A model generated the notes under the pieces. The model saw only the letters and a list, made by a program, of their open reading frames with translations. It ran no database searches and was not told the origin of the DNA. The position numbers and the translations under genes are program-made. From assembly GCA_964473825.1 (NCBI GenBank), contig CAYYQL010000003.1, forward strand, positions 89,640-153,639: a stretch of 64,000 nucleotides of DNA. The letters run 5' to 3'. The first letter of the stretch is position 1, and the number at the start of each line of letters is the position of its first letter. Shown here one piece after another: positions 28,565-34,464 of this stretch. This DNA is from an uncultured archaeon. Lineage in GTDB: Archaea > Asgardarchaeota > Thorarchaeia > Thorarchaeales > Thorarchaeaceae.

Positions 28565-28855
28565 CATATCGTCAAGTATCACAAGCGCTTCTCCGATGGA
28601 TATGGATAGTCTTGTTGCCAGTTCTCTCGGACTGATATCTGGTTCTACGGGTACGATGTTCTCTCTCACGTATCCCGAAAGATTCGCATATAGTGGGCTT
28701 CTGTGTGTGGTTTCAACCAGAATGTTCCAGAGTGGATGTGTCTTGAAGTTCGCCTTGTCAATATCAATTCCCCTTGTCGAGGGGTATTTTTGCTCGACAT
28801 GTTCGGAGCTAGGAACAACCTCGTTGTTGGGTTTCGTCAGTCTCTCTTGCTTCAC
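28553..28855 (-). CDS. Hypothetical protein with C-terminal HTH-like segment
   Basis: PDISPRELATRLSISIGEALVIL. Confidence 0.7.
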   Translation of the reverse strand: MKQERLTKPNNEVVPSSEHVEQKYPSTRGIDIDKANFKTHPLWNILVETTHRSPLYANLSGYVRENIVPVEPDISPRELATRLSISIGEALVILDDMVQE

Positions 28856-29076
28856 GTGCGAATCCTTCCCGGCATGTACGGTTACCCGTTCTTTTCAAAG
28901 CTCGCTCAACTTGAATAAAAGGATTAGGGCATCAAGCAGCCATGGCCGGAGAATCGCGCTAAATGCAAGGCAGTTGATGGTCACTTCAACTATGCTACTG
29001 CAATGAATGCCTTGTAGTAAGGTTTAACAATGAATCGTCCGAGCAAGCACAAGACATACTGACCAATCGGTCAGCA

Positions 29077-29391
29077 TTGGGGTTTGGAATTATATTGCCA
29101 AGTGGCATACGAAGAATCGTTCTGGACGTTTTGAAACCTCACACTCCTCGTCTCACAGATCTTGCACTCATGATTACGAGAGACGAACATGTGAACGGAC
29201 TGAACATCTCTCTGAAAGAAGTCGACCAAAACACTGAGAGCATAGCTATCACAATCGAGGGCGATGACATTAGGTATGAGACTATCAAAGAGATTCTGGA
29301 GCAAGCAGGTGCAGTGATTCATTCAATCGATCAGGTCGTTGCAGGGAAGGAATTCGTTGAGGAAGTAACCCTCCAACCGGAGAATAGCTGA
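29077..29391 (+). CDS. DUF211 family protein
   Basis: IRRIVLDVLKPH, EVDQNTE, GAVIHSIDQV. Confidence 0.9.
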   Translation: MGFGIILPSGIRRIVLDVLKPHTPRLTDLALMITRDEHVNGLNISLKEVDQNTESIAITIEGDDIRYETIKEILEQAGAVIHSIDQVVAGKEFVEEVTLQPENS

Positions 29392-29454
29392 ACCGATGTA
29401 CGGGTCAAATCAGACATGTAAACGGATGTGTCTGGTCTGCAATGAACCGTATTC

Positions 29455-29880
29455 TTAGGGGTTGTTTCCAAACTCATCTGTCACTCTTCGCAGCGACGAA
29501 CTGCTGAGTGACTTATCAACAAGATGAATCCCCTCCTCGGTGAGAGTTCCTTTGACGTAGAATCGGCCAGCGGACTGGATATAGCAGAGCCCTTTCTCCT
29601 TGAGCCTTCGAAGACTTGCCAGGACGATCTGAGTGAGCTCTTCATCAGTTAGTTGTGGCGTACCCGTGGGAGACTGTACAATCTCGGTCATCGTGAGAAC
29701 ATTCTTCATACTGGATAGTTGGCGCCTGTTGTTGTCGTATGGGTTGGAGTAGAGCCAGAGTAGAACTATCAGGTCCACTATACCCAAGCCGATGTCAGGG
29801 TTTCGGCGTAGCATCCTCTTTGCCACTAGTTCTACCATTGGCATTGTTTCACTTCTATTGTCTTCGGCAGTGCTATTCAC
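29455..29880 (-). CDS. Hypothetical protein, possible winged helix
   Basis: LASLRRLKEKGLCYI...KGTLTEEGI wing-like ending. Confidence 0.75.
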   Translation of the reverse strand: MNSTAEDNRSETMPMVELVAKRMLRRNPDIGLGIVDLIVLLWLYSNPYDNNRRQLSSMKNVLTMTEIVQSPTGTPQLTDEELTQIVLASLRRLKEKGLCYIQSAGRFYVKGTLTEEGIHLVDKSLSSSSLRRVTDEFGNNP

Positions 29881-30065
29881 CGTTCATTGTATGTTGGACG
29901 AACTTGAACACCAGAGAGTTGTCCTCCCAGGTAACGGTACTGGGTGGTCTCCGTCGTGGTCAGCGATGTTGTGTGAGGGACCAGCTCTCAATCATGGGCT
30001 GGAGGATATAAACTCTTACGCTGAAATGTCCACCTTTGTCCAAGTTTTCTGTAGCTGTTGGTGTA
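29881..30065. repeat. 185-nt structured non-coding element B, copy 1 (putative ncRNA/leader)
   Basis: 164/185 identical to 32638-32822 by manual alignment, no indels. Confidence 0.9.
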
Positions 30066-30074
30066 ACCATCGAG

Positions 30075-30791
30075 TCAGTCAATCAGACTCACTATGCCAG
30101 GTTCTGGCTGATATATATCACCGGAATTCATGAGCCGATCGAGGGAGGAGAACACCGAGTTCTCCGATATCGACTCCTTACTGTAGTGCTTGACAATCCT
30201 TCTTACAGGAAGGCGTCCGCCATGCTCTCTGAGCAGTCTTAGAATGCTCTTCGACACATCGACTTCTCGAGTAACGTCTTCCGAATTCTCCCCGGAGGTG
30301 CCAACCAGTTTCACCGACCAAGGACGCGGAAAAATGAGAATGCCACGGTTTCCGAGTTTAGTGAGCTGTTCTTCTACCCAGTCCCATTCGAGTTGATACT
30401 TGGAACTGAGTTCTTCTATTCGGTTCAGAGAGCAACTCTGTCTTCGAGCCTCCCGTTCTAGGAGTTTCATGAGTCTCTTTGTCTTGCCTGTTGGTAATTC
30501 TCGCCCCTCAGAATCGTCCGAGATGTCTCCAGCATCTATGGGCTCACTCGGGACAAGTTCGCGCACCCTATCCTTGGAGCGTTCCACCGCCTTCTTGAAT
30601 TCATCACTGCTGCCTGCGTTGAACTCTTTGGTTGCCTTTGTGGCTGCGTGTTGATCATCGAACATTGCAACCGATGCCTTTGAGATGTCGATAAGCTTAC
30701 CACAATAGCTACATCTTCTGCGCTTCTGGCCCACCGGCGCATTGGTGAATCGATGGCATTTGGGACACATGAATACAAAGAACGGCTTCAC
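30075..30791 (-). CDS. DUF1922-like Zn-ribbon plus winged-helix protein
   Basis: CPKC...RCSYCG; two wHTH-like units ending GILIFPRP and GDIYQPEPG. Confidence 0.75.
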   Translation of the reverse strand: MKPFFVFMCPKCHRFTNAPVGQKRRRCSYCGKLIDISKASVAMFDDQHAATKATKEFNAGSSDEFKKAVERSKDRVRELVPSEPIDAGDISDDSEGRELPTGKTKRLMKLLEREARRQSCSLNRIEELSSKYQLEWDWVEEQLTKLGNRGILIFPRPWSVKLVGTSGENSEDVTREVDVSKSILRLLREHGGRLPVRRIVKHYSKESISENSVFSSLDRLMNSGDIYQPEPGIVSLID

Positions 30792-30908
30792 CCAGTTTCA
30801 CCTAGCTCGTTACTTCATCAGCGTAGACGGTATATAACCAGTACTCTCCATGAACACATGAATAGCATTATATCGTAGAGACCAGGCGTGCCCCCTTGAG
30901 GCTGAAGC

Positions 30909-31127
30909 ATGGCACGGAAGGCAAAGCGAATTGTAATTGCCGCTGAACTCTGCAAGGGTTGTCATATCTGTATATCGGCATGTCCCTTTGGAGTGCTGAA
31001 GAAGGGGGATAAGGTGGACAACAGGGGTTTCTATTTGCCAGAGGTCAGCGACATTGATGCATGCAGAGTGTGTCGACTTTGCGAAATGGAGTGTCCAGAC
31101 TTCGCAATCACGGTAGTTGAGGACTGA
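30909..31127 (+). CDS. 2x[4Fe-4S] ferredoxin (2-oxoacid oxidoreductase delta-like)
   Basis: CKGCHICISACP, CRVCRLCEMECPDFAI. Confidence 0.92.
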   Translation: MARKAKRIVIAAELCKGCHICISACPFGVLKKGDKVDNRGFYLPEVSDIDACRVCRLCEMECPDFAITVVED

Positions 31128-31233
31128 TTCTGACTGACTTCATTCCACGAATAAAATATGGAGTCAAATAATACACAGGGTAATATAACACCGGATTCAT
31201 TGAGATACGAGTTCAGACCATCGAAGGTGCGGA

Positions 31234-31800
31234 TTGTTGAGTGATAGCAGAGTCAGGATGTTACTGGAACTGCGGAGGGAGCTTGAGGACGAGCTTGAGA
31301 AGCTAAAGGAGAGAATCCAGCAACTCGAGAGTTACACCAAAGCACTTGACGCCACAATTGGAGCGAGTAGTTTCTCAACAGCACAGGCTGCGTTGGCAGC
31401 TGAAGAACCTGAGCAGAGGGATATCATGGAGGAGGTTCCGTCCAAGGGGCCCCGGACTCTAGGGATCAAGCACAAGTCGAAGGACCTAGAACTTGCCACC
31501 ATGCAGGTCACAGAGGATGAGATAGCAATCACCCCGGCCCCTCACGCATTGTATGATATCAAGCGAGGAGCATTCGCCAGATTCTTTGTGGAAAGAATCC
31601 TGGGCGGTTTTCAACAGGAGGACAAACATCGTGTGGAAAATGGGGAAATAGAATGGGAGGATTCTTTCGATTTTGATATCCAAGCGGAGGACAGCATTCT
31701 CCAGGGAATCTTCATCCGCAACTACGGGGGAGAGGAACGACTGGAAGAAATTCGGAATGCACTAAGATGGGCACTTGAAAAGACATATCGTCCACGCTAG
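31234..31800 (+). CDS. Conserved-looking hypothetical protein (N-terminal coiled coil)
   Basis: Coiled coil then NYGGEERLEEIRNALRWALEK. Confidence 0.8.
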   Translation: MLSDSRVRMLLELRRELEDELEKLKERIQQLESYTKALDATIGASSFSTAQAALAAEEPEQRDIMEEVPSKGPRTLGIKHKSKDLELATMQVTEDEIAITPAPHALYDIKRGAFARFFVERILGGFQQEDKHRVENGEIEWEDSFDFDIQAEDSILQGIFIRNYGGEERLEEIRNALRWALEKTYRPR

Positions 31801-31913
31801 ACAGCAGGGCAAAAAGGCGCGTTCTACACTTACCTCAGTTTCCGATGCAAAACGGATATATCCTTGGCAACTGAAACGTTTGTTGCCTATGTTGACACGA
31901 AGGAGAGGTAGCA

Positions 31914-32540
31914 GTGCATTACGATGACGAGGCGCATCCCGGATTCAACCCCCACGACGTGGTTAATATCGTACGAGATGCGCACGAGTATTTCAAGGAG
32001 AGTAATGTCGATGAACGATATGAGGCAGTGGCCTTAGATCTCATCCGGAGGTATGTGTCAACAGAGGGAAGGCCACGGGAACTTGAACCACTCTATGCAG
32101 CCTCTCTTTACTTGGTGACTCGACATCCCTGGAGCCACCCCAACCCCCTCACAAGAACCGAGTTCGCCAGTAAACTCCGGATCAAAGAGTCGAGTTTAGA
32201 GTGGTATACTGAGTCTATCATTGAGAAGCTTGGATTCGAGGTCTTTCATGACCATGGCCAGCTACCTTTCTACATAGACCCAAGAGGAACTATCTCGAGT
32301 GTCATTAACTCCGTGGTAAGGACGAGTGTAAGCGAAGAAGTGGTCTTGGGTATTGTGAGAGGGGGGGCTGTGGCACCAAGTGCGCTCGCAGAAAGAATAG
32401 TGGAACGCCTCTGCAGAATCGTGAAGATTCTTCCAAATGCCTTCGAGAGAGATTTGTTCACAATAGTAGAGAAGAAGATAGAAGAACAGAGTGGGCGACT
32501 ACTTGCTGAGCTAAAGCAAGGTGCAGCAATGGGACTCTAG
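31914..32540 (+). CDS. Hypothetical protein with a TFB-like cyclin repeat
   Basis: GRPRELEPLYAASLYLVTR...LTRTEFASKLRIKESSL resembles the GR..AAAIY...TQREIA repeat of the tfb in this window. Confidence 0.6.
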   Translation: MHYDDEAHPGFNPHDVVNIVRDAHEYFKESNVDERYEAVALDLIRRYVSTEGRPRELEPLYAASLYLVTRHPWSHPNPLTRTEFASKLRIKESSLEWYTESIIEKLGFEVFHDHGQLPFYIDPRGTISSVINSVVRTSVSEEVVLGIVRGGAVAPSALAERIVERLCRIVKILPNAFERDLFTIVEKKIEEQSGRLLAELKQGAAMGL

Positions 32541-32637
32541 CTAATCCGAGTGGTCAACACCGCGTGGACTCAACAGTCAGACCGTAACTCAGACGGAATA
32601 TTTGGCATCGGATTCGGTGTCTGGTTCTAAGAGGAAT

Positions 32638-32822
32638 CGTTCATTGTATGTTGGACAGACTTAGACACCGGAGAGATGTTCCCCCGGGTAACGGCGTTGG
32701 GTGTTTTCCGTCGTGGTCAGCGATGCTGTGTGAGTGACCAGCTCTCAATCATGGGCTGGAGGATATAGACTCCTATGCTGAGATGTCCAACTTTGTCCAA
32801 GTTTTCTGTAGCTGTTGGTGTA
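32638..32822. repeat. 185-nt structured non-coding element B, copy 2
   Basis: Direct repeat of 29881-30065. Confidence 0.9.
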
Positions 32823-33087
32823 CCCTATATGTAAGATTCTTGCCTTCTGGATGTGGCAATTGGTAATGTTTAAATGTGAACTATTTTGGCATCTGAGTGT
32901 CGCTCTCTGATAGTGACTGTTCGGAACGGAAGGAAGCAGTGCAGGTTCTTGATTCTGCTCGCGGAAGTGGCCTGTATACGTGTGCCGGAGGTTCTGGGTA
33001 GCCATTGAGGGTGCCATGATGAGGAGACTACCTACCAATAGCGGAAGGTGAGCTTTTCATAGGTCACAAGACCAGAAGTGAGGTACC

Positions 33088-33552
33088 ATGCCGTCGTACA
33101 GATACAGCATAATTGGCATTGACCCGGACAGGACTGCCATAGCCAGCGGAAGAAACATGCGATGTTCGCCAAAACATGCGAGAGAAGTGTGTGAGGCCAT
33201 TCGTGGCATGATGCTCGATAAGGCGATTGAGTTGCTTGAGGAAGTCATTGAGGAGAAGGCATGGATTCCGTACAAGCGCCACAAGAAGAAGAGAGCGCAT
33301 CATTCTGGCATGAAGAAATGGCATACTGGTGGCCATCCAGTGAAGGCATCCCAGAGAATTCTGAGAGTGCTGAGAAATGCAGAGGCCAACGCAGACAACA
33401 AGGGTCTAGACATTGATCGTCTGAGAATTATGCATGCCGCAGCTCACAGAGGCAGGACATACAAGAAGTATATCGAACGCGCCTTTGGGCGGAGTACCCC
33501 CTATAACGAGAATACAACACATGTGGAGATTGTTCTAGAAGAGGTGTCATAG
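33088..33552 (+). CDS. rpl22: Ribosomal protein uL22
   Basis: SPKHAREVCEAIRGM, NAEANADNKGLD, RAFGRSTP. Confidence 0.97.
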   Translation: MPSYRYSIIGIDPDRTAIASGRNMRCSPKHAREVCEAIRGMMLDKAIELLEEVIEEKAWIPYKRHKKKRAHHSGMKKWHTGGHPVKASQRILRVLRNAEANADNKGLDIDRLRIMHAAAHRGRTYKKYIERAFGRSTPYNENTTHVEIVLEEVS

Positions 33553-34464
33553 TTGTCGGCAGTTAAGTACTTCATCGAACGCAACACTCGCAAGCTAGCT
33601 CTTGATGAATTTCTGAACCGTGAGCTCAACGCTGCAGGTTATGGTGGCCTTGAGATTCGGAAGATGCCCATGAGGACAGAGGTAGTGATTTACTCCTCTC
33701 GTCCAGGTGTCGTTATCGGACGCAGAGGGTCCAAGGTTCGTGAATTGACTTACATACTTGAAACAGAATTCGGTATAGAGAACATTCAGATCGAGGTCAG
33801 TGAGATTGAGAATCCTTGGCTCAATGCTCAGGTTATGGCCTCTAGACTGGCAAGACAGCTTGAACGAGGCGTTCGCTTCCGTAGAATGGCTTACTGGATT
33901 CTAAGGCGGATTATGCGTGCAGGCGCTCTTGGCTGTGAGATTGTTGTGAAGGGCAAGTTATCCAGTCGTAGAGGACGGTACCAGAAGTTTAAGCAATCCA
34001 CCGTTGCAAAGACTGGAGAACCTGCTGACACATTCGTTGATTCGTCCTATGATAAGGCTGTTCTCAAACCTGGTGTTACTGGCATCAAGGTCAGCATAAT
34101 GAAACCCGGCGCCAAACTGCCTGGTGTTGTTCATGTGAAGAAACCAAAGCACAGAGAGGAGCCAGAACCACAACTTCTCAAAGAACCTACAGAAGAAGAG
34201 GAACCTGACGAAGAGGCTGTTGAGGAAGGCCTTGAGGGAATCACTGACATGGATGAACTTCGCGAGTTAGAAGAGCTTGACGCTTTGGAGCTTGTTGAGG
34301 ATGCTGAACTGGAGGCAGAACAGCGTGAGACTCCGCCGCCAAAGCCAGAGGAAACCTCAGACGACACTCCTGACCAAGAGGCGCCTTCAGAGGAGGCCCC
34401 CTCTGTTGATCTGGAAGAACTAGAAGAGCTTGACGACCTTGATACCGAAGGAGAGGATGAATAA
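33553..34464 (+). CDS. rps3: Ribosomal protein uS3 with acidic tail
   Basis: RPGVVIGRRG, LERGVRFRR, GCEIVVKGKL. Confidence 0.96.
   Translation: MSAVKYFIERNTRKLALDEFLNRELNAAGYGGLEIRKMPMRTEVVIYSSRPGVVIGRRGSKVRELTYILETEFGIENIQIEVSEIENPWLNAQVMASRLARQLERGVRFRRMAYWILRRIMRAGALGCEIVVKGKLSSRRGRYQKFKQSTVAKTGEPADTFVDSSYDKAVLKPGVTGIKVSIMKPGAKLPGVVHVKKPKHREEPEPQLLKEPTEEEEPDEEAVEEGLEGITDMDELRELEELDALELVEDAELEAEQRETPPPKPEETSDDTPDQEAPSEEAPSVDLEELEELDDLDTEGEDE

What the first reader, a model, noticed from the sequence alone, without database searches (positions are those of the whole stretch)
29881..32822. Duplicated 185-nt structured non-coding element (candidate new RNA family) bracketing a block of uncharacterised genes
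Seen: 29881-30065 and 32638-32822 are direct repeats with no indels and 21 mismatches by manual count, 17 of them transitions. Many changes preserve pairing. On the minus strand ACTTGGACA pairs with TGTTCAAGT (copy 1) or TGTCTAAGT (copy 2), i.e. swapped G-C/G-U pairs, and a GGGAG/CTCTC or CCGGGGG/TCTCCGG hairpin is kept. An invariant CCAGC-CCAT-GA-TTGA-GA-GCTGG hairpin resembles an L7Ae-binding K-loop. Copy 1 fills nearly the whole gap between the DUF1922-like gene and the 29455-29880 gene. Copy 2 is free-standing, with a TATA-like CTTACATATA just upstream on the minus strand. I do not recognise it as tRNA, 5S, SRP, RNase P or a known riboswitch. Inference: a structured RNA used both as a cis leader and a stand-alone sRNA, linked to the enclosed wHTH, ferredoxin and TFB-like genes. 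The strand is uncertain because some helices also work on +.
Basis: partly seen in the sequence, partly recalled or inferred. Interest (0 to 1): 0.8.

Follow-up and report, generated by a model that had tools for sequence, protein, structure and literature searches.

The report
Gene-less IS607 mini-transposon with TnpB guide RNA
The two 185-base repeats are copies of a gene-less mini-transposon of the IS607 family, present about 30 times in this genome, that keeps only the transposon ends and the scaffold of the guide RNA used by TnpB nucleases; it is a known kind of mobile DNA, not a new host RNA tied to the genes between the copies.

Summary
The repeat is real: window 29880-30064 and 32637-32821, with no indels.

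It is not a two-copy element. The genome holds 11 near-full copies, several diverged subfamilies and about 30 matches to a covariance model. Relatives in the same family carry up to 64 matches each.

Same-genus genomes have empty sites at copy 1 and at two other copies. There is no target-site duplication. A GG(T) core sits at both junctions and the 5' flank reads GGGT.

On the window's minus strand, the last 105 nt are homologous to the 3' end and right end of 720-aa TnpB-like genes. The first 45 nt match the left end that lies directly upstream of an IS607 serine-recombinase tnpA in relatives.

Three helices in the 105-nt part covary strongly. G-U pairs outnumber A-C pairs, which favours the minus strand. 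A TATA-like box lies 28-30 nt upstream of this scaffold in 36 of 42 gene-less copies.

The enclosed genes occur in relatives without the element.

Verdict: an omegaRNA-bearing, non-autonomous IS607 derivative. This scan had already found the same kind of element on other DNA of this genome.

The parts
29880..30064 (-). Copy 1 of the mini-element, 185 nt. On the minus strand it reads 5'-ACACCAACAGC...CAATGAACGG-3'.
   Evidence: These bases are absent from the otherwise contiguous orthologous site in G002:C4 and G001:C190.
32637..32821 (-). Copy 2 of the mini-element, 185 nt. Its scaffold is more decayed: the P_a and P_b helices carry mismatches.
   Evidence: Alignment to copy 1. The covariance model scores it 92.9 bits against 115 for copy 1. 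The G002 site holds only a degenerate left-end-like remnant of about 45 nt.
30020..30064 (-). Left end of copy 1: an ACAGCTAC box and two TGGACA repeats about 10 bp apart (30037-30043 and 30027-30033). These are the presumed binding sites for the serine transposase.
   Evidence: The same left-end architecture lies directly upstream of IS607 tnpA in G010:C1 and twice in G009:C18. Coordinates.
30006..30012 (-). Internal TATA-like box TTTATAT of copy 1 (copy 2 has TCTATAT at 32763-32769). It starts 28 nt upstream of the scaffold start.
   Evidence: 36 of 42 gene-less modules from several genera match TTTAWATA at 6 of 8 positions or better at -33 to -27, against 0-6 of 42 in control windows. The box is absent from tnpB-linked copies.
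29880..29984 (-). OmegaRNA-like scaffold of copy 1, 105 nt. P_c pairs 29979-29983 with 29957-29961. P_b pairs 29948-29953 with 29912-29917. P_a pairs 29940-29944 with 29926-29930. The right-end repeats TGTYCAA lie at 29904-29910 and 29894-29900, and the terminus is CAATGAACGG.
   Evidence: Homology to the 3' end and downstream region of the 720-aa TnpB genes. Covariation. Coordinates.
32637..32741 (-). OmegaRNA-like scaffold of copy 2.
   Evidence: Covariance-model match at G000:C3:122276-122380, which is window 32637-32741, E 1.4e-18.
30065..30068 (-). 5' flank of copy 1 on the minus strand: GGTT. Most copies have GGGT here, as copy 2 does at 32822-32825. This is the candidate target motif or TAM containing the GG core.
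   Evidence: Flank alignments. Comparison with the published IS607 GG core and TGGG motif (bioRxiv 10.1101/2023.11.20.567912, read).
29860..29879 (-). Predicted guide of copy 1: flank TGAATAGCACTGCCGAAGAC. It lies in the leader of the 29455-29844 gene, whose ATG is 36 nt beyond the right end.
   Evidence: Inference from TnpB biology, in which the guide is the DNA just beyond the right end. Not tested.
32617..32636 (-). Predicted guide of copy 2: flank TTCCTCTTAGAACCAGACAC. It reads antisense towards the 3' end of the 31914-32540 gene.
   Evidence: Inference. Not tested.

Best explanation
Each repeat is a non-autonomous, gene-less derivative of an IS607-family transposon, the family that pairs a serine-recombinase TnpA with the RNA-guided nuclease TnpB.

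Read on the window's minus strand, the element has four parts:
1. A left end carrying two TGGACA repeats.
2. A TATA-like box.
3. About 22 nt of spacer.
4. A 105-nt omegaRNA (reRNA) scaffold. Its 3' part also carries the mirrored TGTCCA repeats and the right-end terminus CAATGAACGG.

Shown here: homology of both ends to TnpA/TnpB-carrying elements, insertion polymorphism without target duplication at GG(T) sites, and three covarying helices.

Inferred:
- The serine TnpA of a full-length element binds the mirrored repeats and moves the mini-element in trans through a circular intermediate.
- The internal promoter transcribes the scaffold and reads about 16-20 nt into the flank, which becomes the guide.
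- One of the resident 720-aa TnpB proteins, whose D-E-D and zinc-finger motifs are intact, uses that RNA in trans to cut the empty (excised) site. This promotes re-copying of the element (homing or retention).

In this genome only a tnpA fragment was found, so the copies may be immobile at present.
For: - Copy number and sharp borders.
- The minus-strand 3' ~100 nt aligns with the end of the tnpB coding sequence (the AARNIIH region) plus the downstream right end at G000 C26, C1 and C15, and more distantly at C78 and C2.
- The tnpB product matches PF07282 at 2e-11, above its cutoff, and NCBIfam guided_TnpB at 7e-17.
- G010:C1 holds left end, truncated IS607 tnpA (NF033518, 1.5e-20), tnpB and right end within 2.65 kb.
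- G009:C18 has the left end directly upstream of a full-length IS607 tnpA at two loci.
- Empty sites: copy 1 in G002 and G001; the C29 and C1:169k copies fit X-GG-[184 nt]-GG-Y against X-(C/G)G-Y exactly.
- Covariation on a structure-blind MAFFT alignment of 42 sequences: 93.9% of cells paired against 58% or less when the partner is slid; 9 of 11 pairs change on both sides; 0 of 500 shuffles reach this.
- Covariation on the model-fitted alignment of 54 distinct sequences: 15 of 16 pairs change on both sides across three helices.
- G-U/U-G cells number 62 against 24 A-C/C-A cells.
- The TATA-like box is position-fixed in 36 of 42 gene-less modules.
- The model hits 18 of 24 genomes of the family and 0 of 16 outside it.
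- Published IS607 properties match: no TSD, GG core, TGGG target/TAM, short inverted motifs at the ends. Gene-less PATE elements that encode omegaRNAs used in trans are described.
Against:
- No intact IS607 tnpA was found in G000, G001 or G002, only fragments.
- The left end of the mini-element was not found next to the three full tnpB loci of G000.
- Copy 1's junctions deviate from the GG-core rule by 1-2 T in a T-run.
- Single-sequence folding is no more stable than shuffled sequence on either strand (z between -0.13 and 0.66). The structure therefore rests on covariation only.
- Copy 2's P_a and P_b helices carry mismatches.
- The tnpB-linked scaffolds differ from the solo ones in P_b and P_c, so compatibility with the resident TnpB is assumed, not shown.
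Confidence: 0.8

Rival explanations
1. Same origin, but the copies are inert relics. On this view the mini-elements are dead insertions, and their conserved helices only reflect descent from functional tnpB-linked scaffolds. Nothing is transcribed or used today.
For: - No intact tnpA in the genus.
- Copies differ by 8-24%.
- Copy 2's helices are damaged.
- There is no excess folding stability.
Against: - Helices covary among solo modules of different genera, which needs selection after the modules became gene-less.
- A TATA-like box is kept at a fixed distance in 36 of 42 solo modules although the sequence around it diverges.
- Insertion differences exist between species of one genus.
Confidence: 0.12
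2. One reading: a host-encoded structured RNA family. It would serve as a cis leader at copy 1 and a stand-alone sRNA at copy 2, carry an L7Ae-binding K-loop, and be tied functionally to the enclosed genes.
For: - No Rfam match.
- A structured module exists on the minus strand.
- Copy 1 sits in a gene leader.
Against: - About 30 dispersed copies at unrelated loci.
- Empty orthologous sites in G002 and G001, which carry the same genes.
- The ends are shared with tnpA/tnpB elements.
- The K-loop hairpin shows zero compensatory changes and five disruptive ones, and other subfamilies lack it.
- The other two proposed helices are not supported.
Confidence: 0.03
3. An IS200/IS605-type PATE, moved as single-stranded DNA by a Y1 (HUH) TnpA and inserted 3' of a tetranucleotide (GGGT).
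For: - No TSD.
- A conserved 4-nt 5' flank.
- Association with TnpB.
- Copy 1's net insertion is exactly 185 nt with no shared bases.
Against: - No Y1_Tnp match in the genome.
- The left end abuts an IS607 serine tnpA in G009 and G010.
- The ends carry mirrored direct repeats rather than subterminal hairpins.
- Two of three empty sites show the shared GG core.
Confidence: 0.03
4. Mobilised by the giant Cas1-like protein encoded next to tnpB in two G000 loci, in a casposon-like manner, rather than by a serine TnpA.
For: - A divergent ORF of about 1,600 aa neighbours tnpB at C26 and C2, in G002, and after tnpA in G009.
- Altae-Tran et al. 2023 suggest that aCas1 is the transposase of such loci (PMC10691335, read).
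Against: - Insertions show no long target duplication, which Cas1-type integration is known to produce (established knowledge).
- G010 has left end, tnpA, tnpB and right end without the giant gene.
- Pfam finds no domain in the giant ORF. Its Cas1 nature was not verified here.
Confidence: 0.03

Closest known systems
IS607-family transposons with TnpB and a right-end omegaRNA, for example the Clostridium botulinum IStron studied by Zedaveinyte et al. (bioRxiv 10.1101/2023.11.20.567912)
   Same: - A serine-recombinase tnpA next to the left end in full-length relatives.
- No target duplication, a GG core at both junctions and a G-rich 5' motif (TGGG there, GGGT here).
- Short mirrored 6-7-bp motifs at both ends.
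- A guide-RNA scaffold that overlaps the tnpB 3' end and the right end.
   Different: - The element here carries no gene at all.
- Its TnpB partners are 720 aa, about twice the usual size.
- There is no group I intron.
- The host is an archaeal lineage.
- The scaffold appears to have its own TATA-type promoter.
PATE-like gene-less IS200/IS605 derivatives that encode omegaRNAs (Meers et al., bioRxiv 10.1101/2023.03.14.532601)
   Same: - A minimal element with a left end and a right end.
- A guide-RNA scaffold that must be used in trans by TnpB encoded elsewhere.
- Many copies per genome.
   Different: - Those elements are moved by a Y1 transposase as single-stranded DNA and have subterminal hairpins.
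- This one has IS607-type ends and GG-core junctions.
Asgard aCas1-associated TnpB loci (groups Cas1H-Asgard-1 and -2 of Altae-Tran et al. 2023, PMC10691335)
   Same: - The full tnpB loci of this genome that share the right end sit head-to-head with a giant ORF of about 1,600 aa.
- Such pairs are catalogued in that paper.
   Different: - The paper describes gene-carrying loci and a hypervariable region with a GTTCACTCA motif. It does not describe the 185-nt gene-less derivative.
- I could not confirm a Cas1 domain.
- I found a serine tnpA at the left end instead.
Classical MITEs (terminal inverted repeats plus target-site duplication)
   Same: - Short, gene-less and multi-copy.
- Mobilised in trans.
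- Inverted motifs near both ends.
   Different: - No target-site duplication.
- The inverted motifs are subterminal tandem repeats, not terminal inverted repeats.
- The element carries a functional-looking RNA module.

Membership tests
IS607-family transposon (non-autonomous derivative) | A serine-recombinase TnpA (MerR-type HTH plus resolvase domain) encoded next to the same left end in full-length relatives. | tested here: met
   In G010:C1 a 121-aa ORF matches NF033518 at 1.5e-20 and lies about 30 nt after the left end. In G009:C18 a full tnpA, above the cutoff, sits directly after the left end at two loci.
IS607-family transposon (non-autonomous derivative) | No target-site duplication, with a shared GG core dinucleotide at both junctions. 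| tested here: met
   The C29 and C1:169k sites fit X-GG-[element]-GG-Y against X-(C/G)G-Y in G002. Copy 1 has no duplication but is off by 1-2 T in a T-run.
IS607-family transposon (non-autonomous derivative) | Short inverted motifs near both ends for TnpA binding. | tested here: met
   Two copies of TGGACA at the left end and two of TGTCCA at the right end, about 10 bp apart. They do not covary as an RNA helix. Binding itself was not tested.
IS607-family transposon (non-autonomous derivative) | Excision and integration by TnpA in trans. | not testable with these tools
   Insertion polymorphism within the genus is the only indirect sign. No intact tnpA was found in G000-G002.
TnpB omegaRNA / reRNA | Scaffold derived from the tnpB 3' end plus the right end, ending at the transposon border. 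| tested here: met
   Alignment to five tnpB-linked ends. Covariance-model hits at the C26, C1 and C15 tnpB ends.
TnpB omegaRNA / reRNA | A conserved secondary structure supported by covariation. | tested here: met
   The pseudoknot hint is only suggestive.
TnpB omegaRNA / reRNA | Transcribed, with the guide taken from the flank, and bound and used by TnpB. | not testable with these tools
The promoter is inferred from the TATA-like box.
K-turn / K-loop RNA bound by L7Ae | A conserved kink-turn hairpin maintained by compensatory change. | tested here: not met
   No double-sided changes and 5 disruptive cells in 15 copies. Other subfamilies lack the segment.
IS200/IS605 PATE | A Y1 (HUH) TnpA in the genome or next to the ends, and subterminal hairpins. 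| tested here: not met
   PF01797 gave no match in G000. The ends carry tandem repeats, not hairpins.
Any Rfam family | A covariance-model match. | tested here: not met
   No match up to E = 10 over 29000-33500.

The most novel reading that the evidence does not exclude
The gene-less modules could be promoter-carrying guide-RNA genes. Each would bring its own archaeal TATA promoter, which fires outward across the right end. Besides supplying about 30 trans-acting guides to 3 TnpB genes, the modules would then act as mobile outward-reading promoters. At copy 1 such a promoter would drive the wHTH gene 36 nt downstream. At copy 2 it would make an antisense RNA to the 3' end of the TFB-like gene. 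This would give these archaea a transposon-borne way to rewire expression of host genes.
Probability: 0.15. Interest if true: 0.55.

Novelty: new member of a known kind. Interest (0 to 1): 0.33.

Why it matters
The result removes a candidate for a new RNA family and explains it as mobile DNA. It also yields a defined, covariation-supported scaffold model for the guide RNA of the unusually large (720-aa) TnpB nucleases of this archaeal family. It fixes exact transposon borders and gives a likely target motif (GGGT with a GG core). It documents that gene-less guide-RNA modules outnumber nuclease genes about ten to one. These are useful starting points for testing these nucleases and their serine transposase. 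They also help annotate dozens of similar repeats that break the assemblies of related genomes.

Tried and rejected
- Rfam scan up to E = 10: no match.
- RNAalifold on a mixed-subfamily alignment: uninformative on both strands. Single-sequence MFE folds were inconsistent.
- Folding stability against shuffles: no signal on either strand.
- phmmer of the TnpB against PDB sequences: no match.
- Search for the mini-element's left end beside the G000 and G002 giant-ORF/tnpB loci: not found.
- Looking for empty sites in G000 at positions where relatives carry insertions: the flanks were not conserved or lay at contig ends.
- Pseudoknot between the P_c loop (GACAC) and GUGUC after P_b: class-specific complements occur (13 of 25 against 2 of 28; GACAT/ATGTC; GACAG/CTGTC), but most rows do not show them, so I left it as a hint.
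- My first reading was IS200/IS605. I rejected it after finding no Y1 TnpA, IS607 tnpA next to the left end and GG-core junctions.
- A protein-coding origin for the whole repeat: an open frame spans copy 1 on the plus strand but not copy 2. Only the last ~30 nt of homology overlaps the tnpB coding sequence in the parent.
Full report
**Observation.** The repeat finder reports 29881-30068 and 32638-32825 as an ungapped direct repeat at 88% identity. No Rfam family matches the region up to E = 10.

**Not a pair but a family.** The window lies at G000:C3:89640-153639.
- A DNA search of the whole genome finds 11 near-full copies on nine contigs and many partial matches.
- A profile search adds diverged subfamilies.
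- Aligned with their flanks, the copies have sharp borders.
- A covariance model of the conserved half finds 30 matches at E below 1e-5 in G000.
- The same model hits 18 of 24 genomes of the family, with up to 64 matches each. These counts are lower bounds. It hits none of 16 genomes outside the family.

**Mobility and exact borders.**
- In the same-genus genome G002 the flanks of copy 1 are contiguous (...GCTATTCA|AACCATCG...). G001 is empty at this site too. The element is therefore window 29880-30064, with no target duplication.
- Two further G000 copies (C29 and C1:169k) also have empty sites in G002.
- Read on the window's minus strand, those two fit X-GG-[184 nt]-GG-Y against X-(C/G)G-Y.
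- Copy 1 deviates by 1-2 T within a T-run.
- Most copies are preceded by GGGT and followed by T.
- The copy 2 site in G002 holds only a degenerate remnant of about 45 nt that resembles the left end.
- The genes between the two copies are present in G002 and G001 without the element. In G001 the block is inverted.
- The genes include a weak DUF1922 match and a 4Fe-4S ferredoxin. The rest have no Pfam match.

**What the ends belong to: the right end.**
- Several partial matches lie immediately after long ORFs that end ...YFYCGRCEEHFHADVNAARNIIH.
- The 720-aa product matches Pfam Cas12f1-like_TNB (2e-11) and NCBIfam guided_TnpB (7e-17, below its cutoff).
- Three full and two partial paralogues exist in G000. 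G[AV]DRG, [LF]E[ND]L, two CxxC and HADVNAARN motifs are kept.
- The minus-strand 3' ~100 nt of the repeat aligns with the last codons of these genes and the sequence downstream. All of them end at CAAT[GC]AACG[GA].

**What the ends belong to: the left end.**
- The left end was not found beside the G000 tnpB loci.
- In G010:C1 the left end and right end enclose 2.65 kb. This holds a 121-aa fragment of an IS607 transposase (NF033518, 1.5e-20) and tnpB.
- In G009:C18 the same left-end architecture directly precedes a full-length IS607 tnpA at two loci. That architecture is GGGT, an ACAGCTA box and two (T/A)GACA repeats.
- Intact tnpA occurs in 16 of 61 family genomes. Only fragments occur in G000 and G002.
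- No Y1 transposase was found in G000.

**Fit to published IS607 properties.** These features match the properties read: a serine TnpA, a circular double-stranded intermediate, no target duplication, a strict GG core, a TGGG target/TAM and short inverted motifs at the ends. Gene-less PATE elements that encode omegaRNAs for use in trans are described in the paper read.

**Structure.**
- On a structure-blind MAFFT alignment of 42 diverse copies, two nested helices are paired in 93.9% of cells. P_b is CGGAGA/TCTCTG in copy 1 and P_a is CCCAG/CTGGG.
- Sliding the 3' partner gives 58% or less. Double-sided changes occur at 9 of 11 pairs, and no shuffle of 500 reaches this.
- On a model-fitted alignment of 54 distinct sequences, a third hairpin (P_c, TGGTC/GACCA) joins them. 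There 15 of 16 pairs change on both sides. That alignment leans towards the structure it was fitted to.
- G-U/U-G cells (62) outnumber A-C/C-A cells (24). This favours the tnpB strand, which is the window's minus strand.
- Folding energy is not better than shuffled sequence.
- A pseudoknot between the P_c loop and the GUGUC that follows P_b is only hinted at.

**Promoter.** In 36 of 42 gene-less modules from several genera, a match to TTTAWATA of 6 of 8 or better starts at -33 to -27 relative to the scaffold start. Control windows give 0-6 of 42. The tnpB-linked copies have coding sequence there instead. An archaeal TATA box centred near -26 would place the transcription start at the first helix.

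**Mechanism proposed.**
- The mini-element is moved in trans by a serine TnpA that recognises the mirrored repeats.
- Its internal promoter makes a 105-nt scaffold that runs into the flank, and the flank supplies the guide.
- A resident TnpB then uses this RNA to cut the vacated site and so retain the element.
- The ends, junctions and structure are shown here. Transcription, TnpB use and current mobility are inferred.

**Comparison and verdict.**
- The element works like, and qualifies as, an omegaRNA-bearing non-autonomous derivative of a TnpB transposon.
- Its ends and junctions place it in the IS607 family, not IS200/IS605.
- It is not a K-turn RNA and not a host regulatory RNA linked to the enclosed genes.
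- Earlier notes of this scan reached the same identification for other copies in this genome. I re-derived it independently here.
- It is a new member of a known kind, of modest interest.

Noticed in passing
G000:C26:28728-33509 (L075) and G000:C2 (L074:3375-8042): A giant ORF (1,555 aa, and 1,594 aa or more at the contig end) is transcribed divergently from the 720-aa tnpB at two loci. It also occurs in G002, and downstream of tnpA in G009. Pfam finds no domain. Earlier notes and Altae-Tran 2023 call such proteins Cas1-like, which I did not verify here.
   Followed up: partly
G001:C190:4877-9323 vs window 28833-33700: In G001 the segment corresponding to window ~29456-32539 is inverted relative to its flanks and carries no element. 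One breakpoint coincides with the copy 2 site.
   Followed up: no
G000:C1:113702-114341 (L032): An internally deleted element: the N-terminal HTH of IS607 tnpA is fused in one open frame to the last ~127 aa of tnpB, followed by an intact right end.
   Followed up: partly
G000:C78:4288-4600 and G000:C2:67200-67503: The right ends of two full tnpB loci are followed closely by tRNA-like sequence on the opposite strand. Their guides may therefore copy tRNA genes.
   Followed up: no
G002:C22:7731-7894 vs G000:C40:21268-21456: At the site orthologous to the C40 copy, G002 carries a diverged element (72% identity) in the opposite orientation. This suggests repeated use of the same site or a local inversion.
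   Followed up: no
G000:C6:86320-88366 and C17:6237-6386: There are three further Cas12f1-like_TNB matches. Two are tandem on C6 and one on C17 carries an in-frame TAG. They belong to other TnpB lineages, and I did not examine their right ends.
   Followed up: no
G023 and G024, many contig ends: Many contigs of these relatives begin or end exactly inside the scaffold. The repeat family therefore fragments their assemblies, and copy numbers are underestimates.
   Followed up: no
window 29844-30077: Copy 1 widens the spacer between the stop of the DUF1922-like gene and the ATG of the next gene from about 45 nt (G002) to 230 nt. It probably splits an operon, and its internal box points at the downstream gene.
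   Followed up: partly
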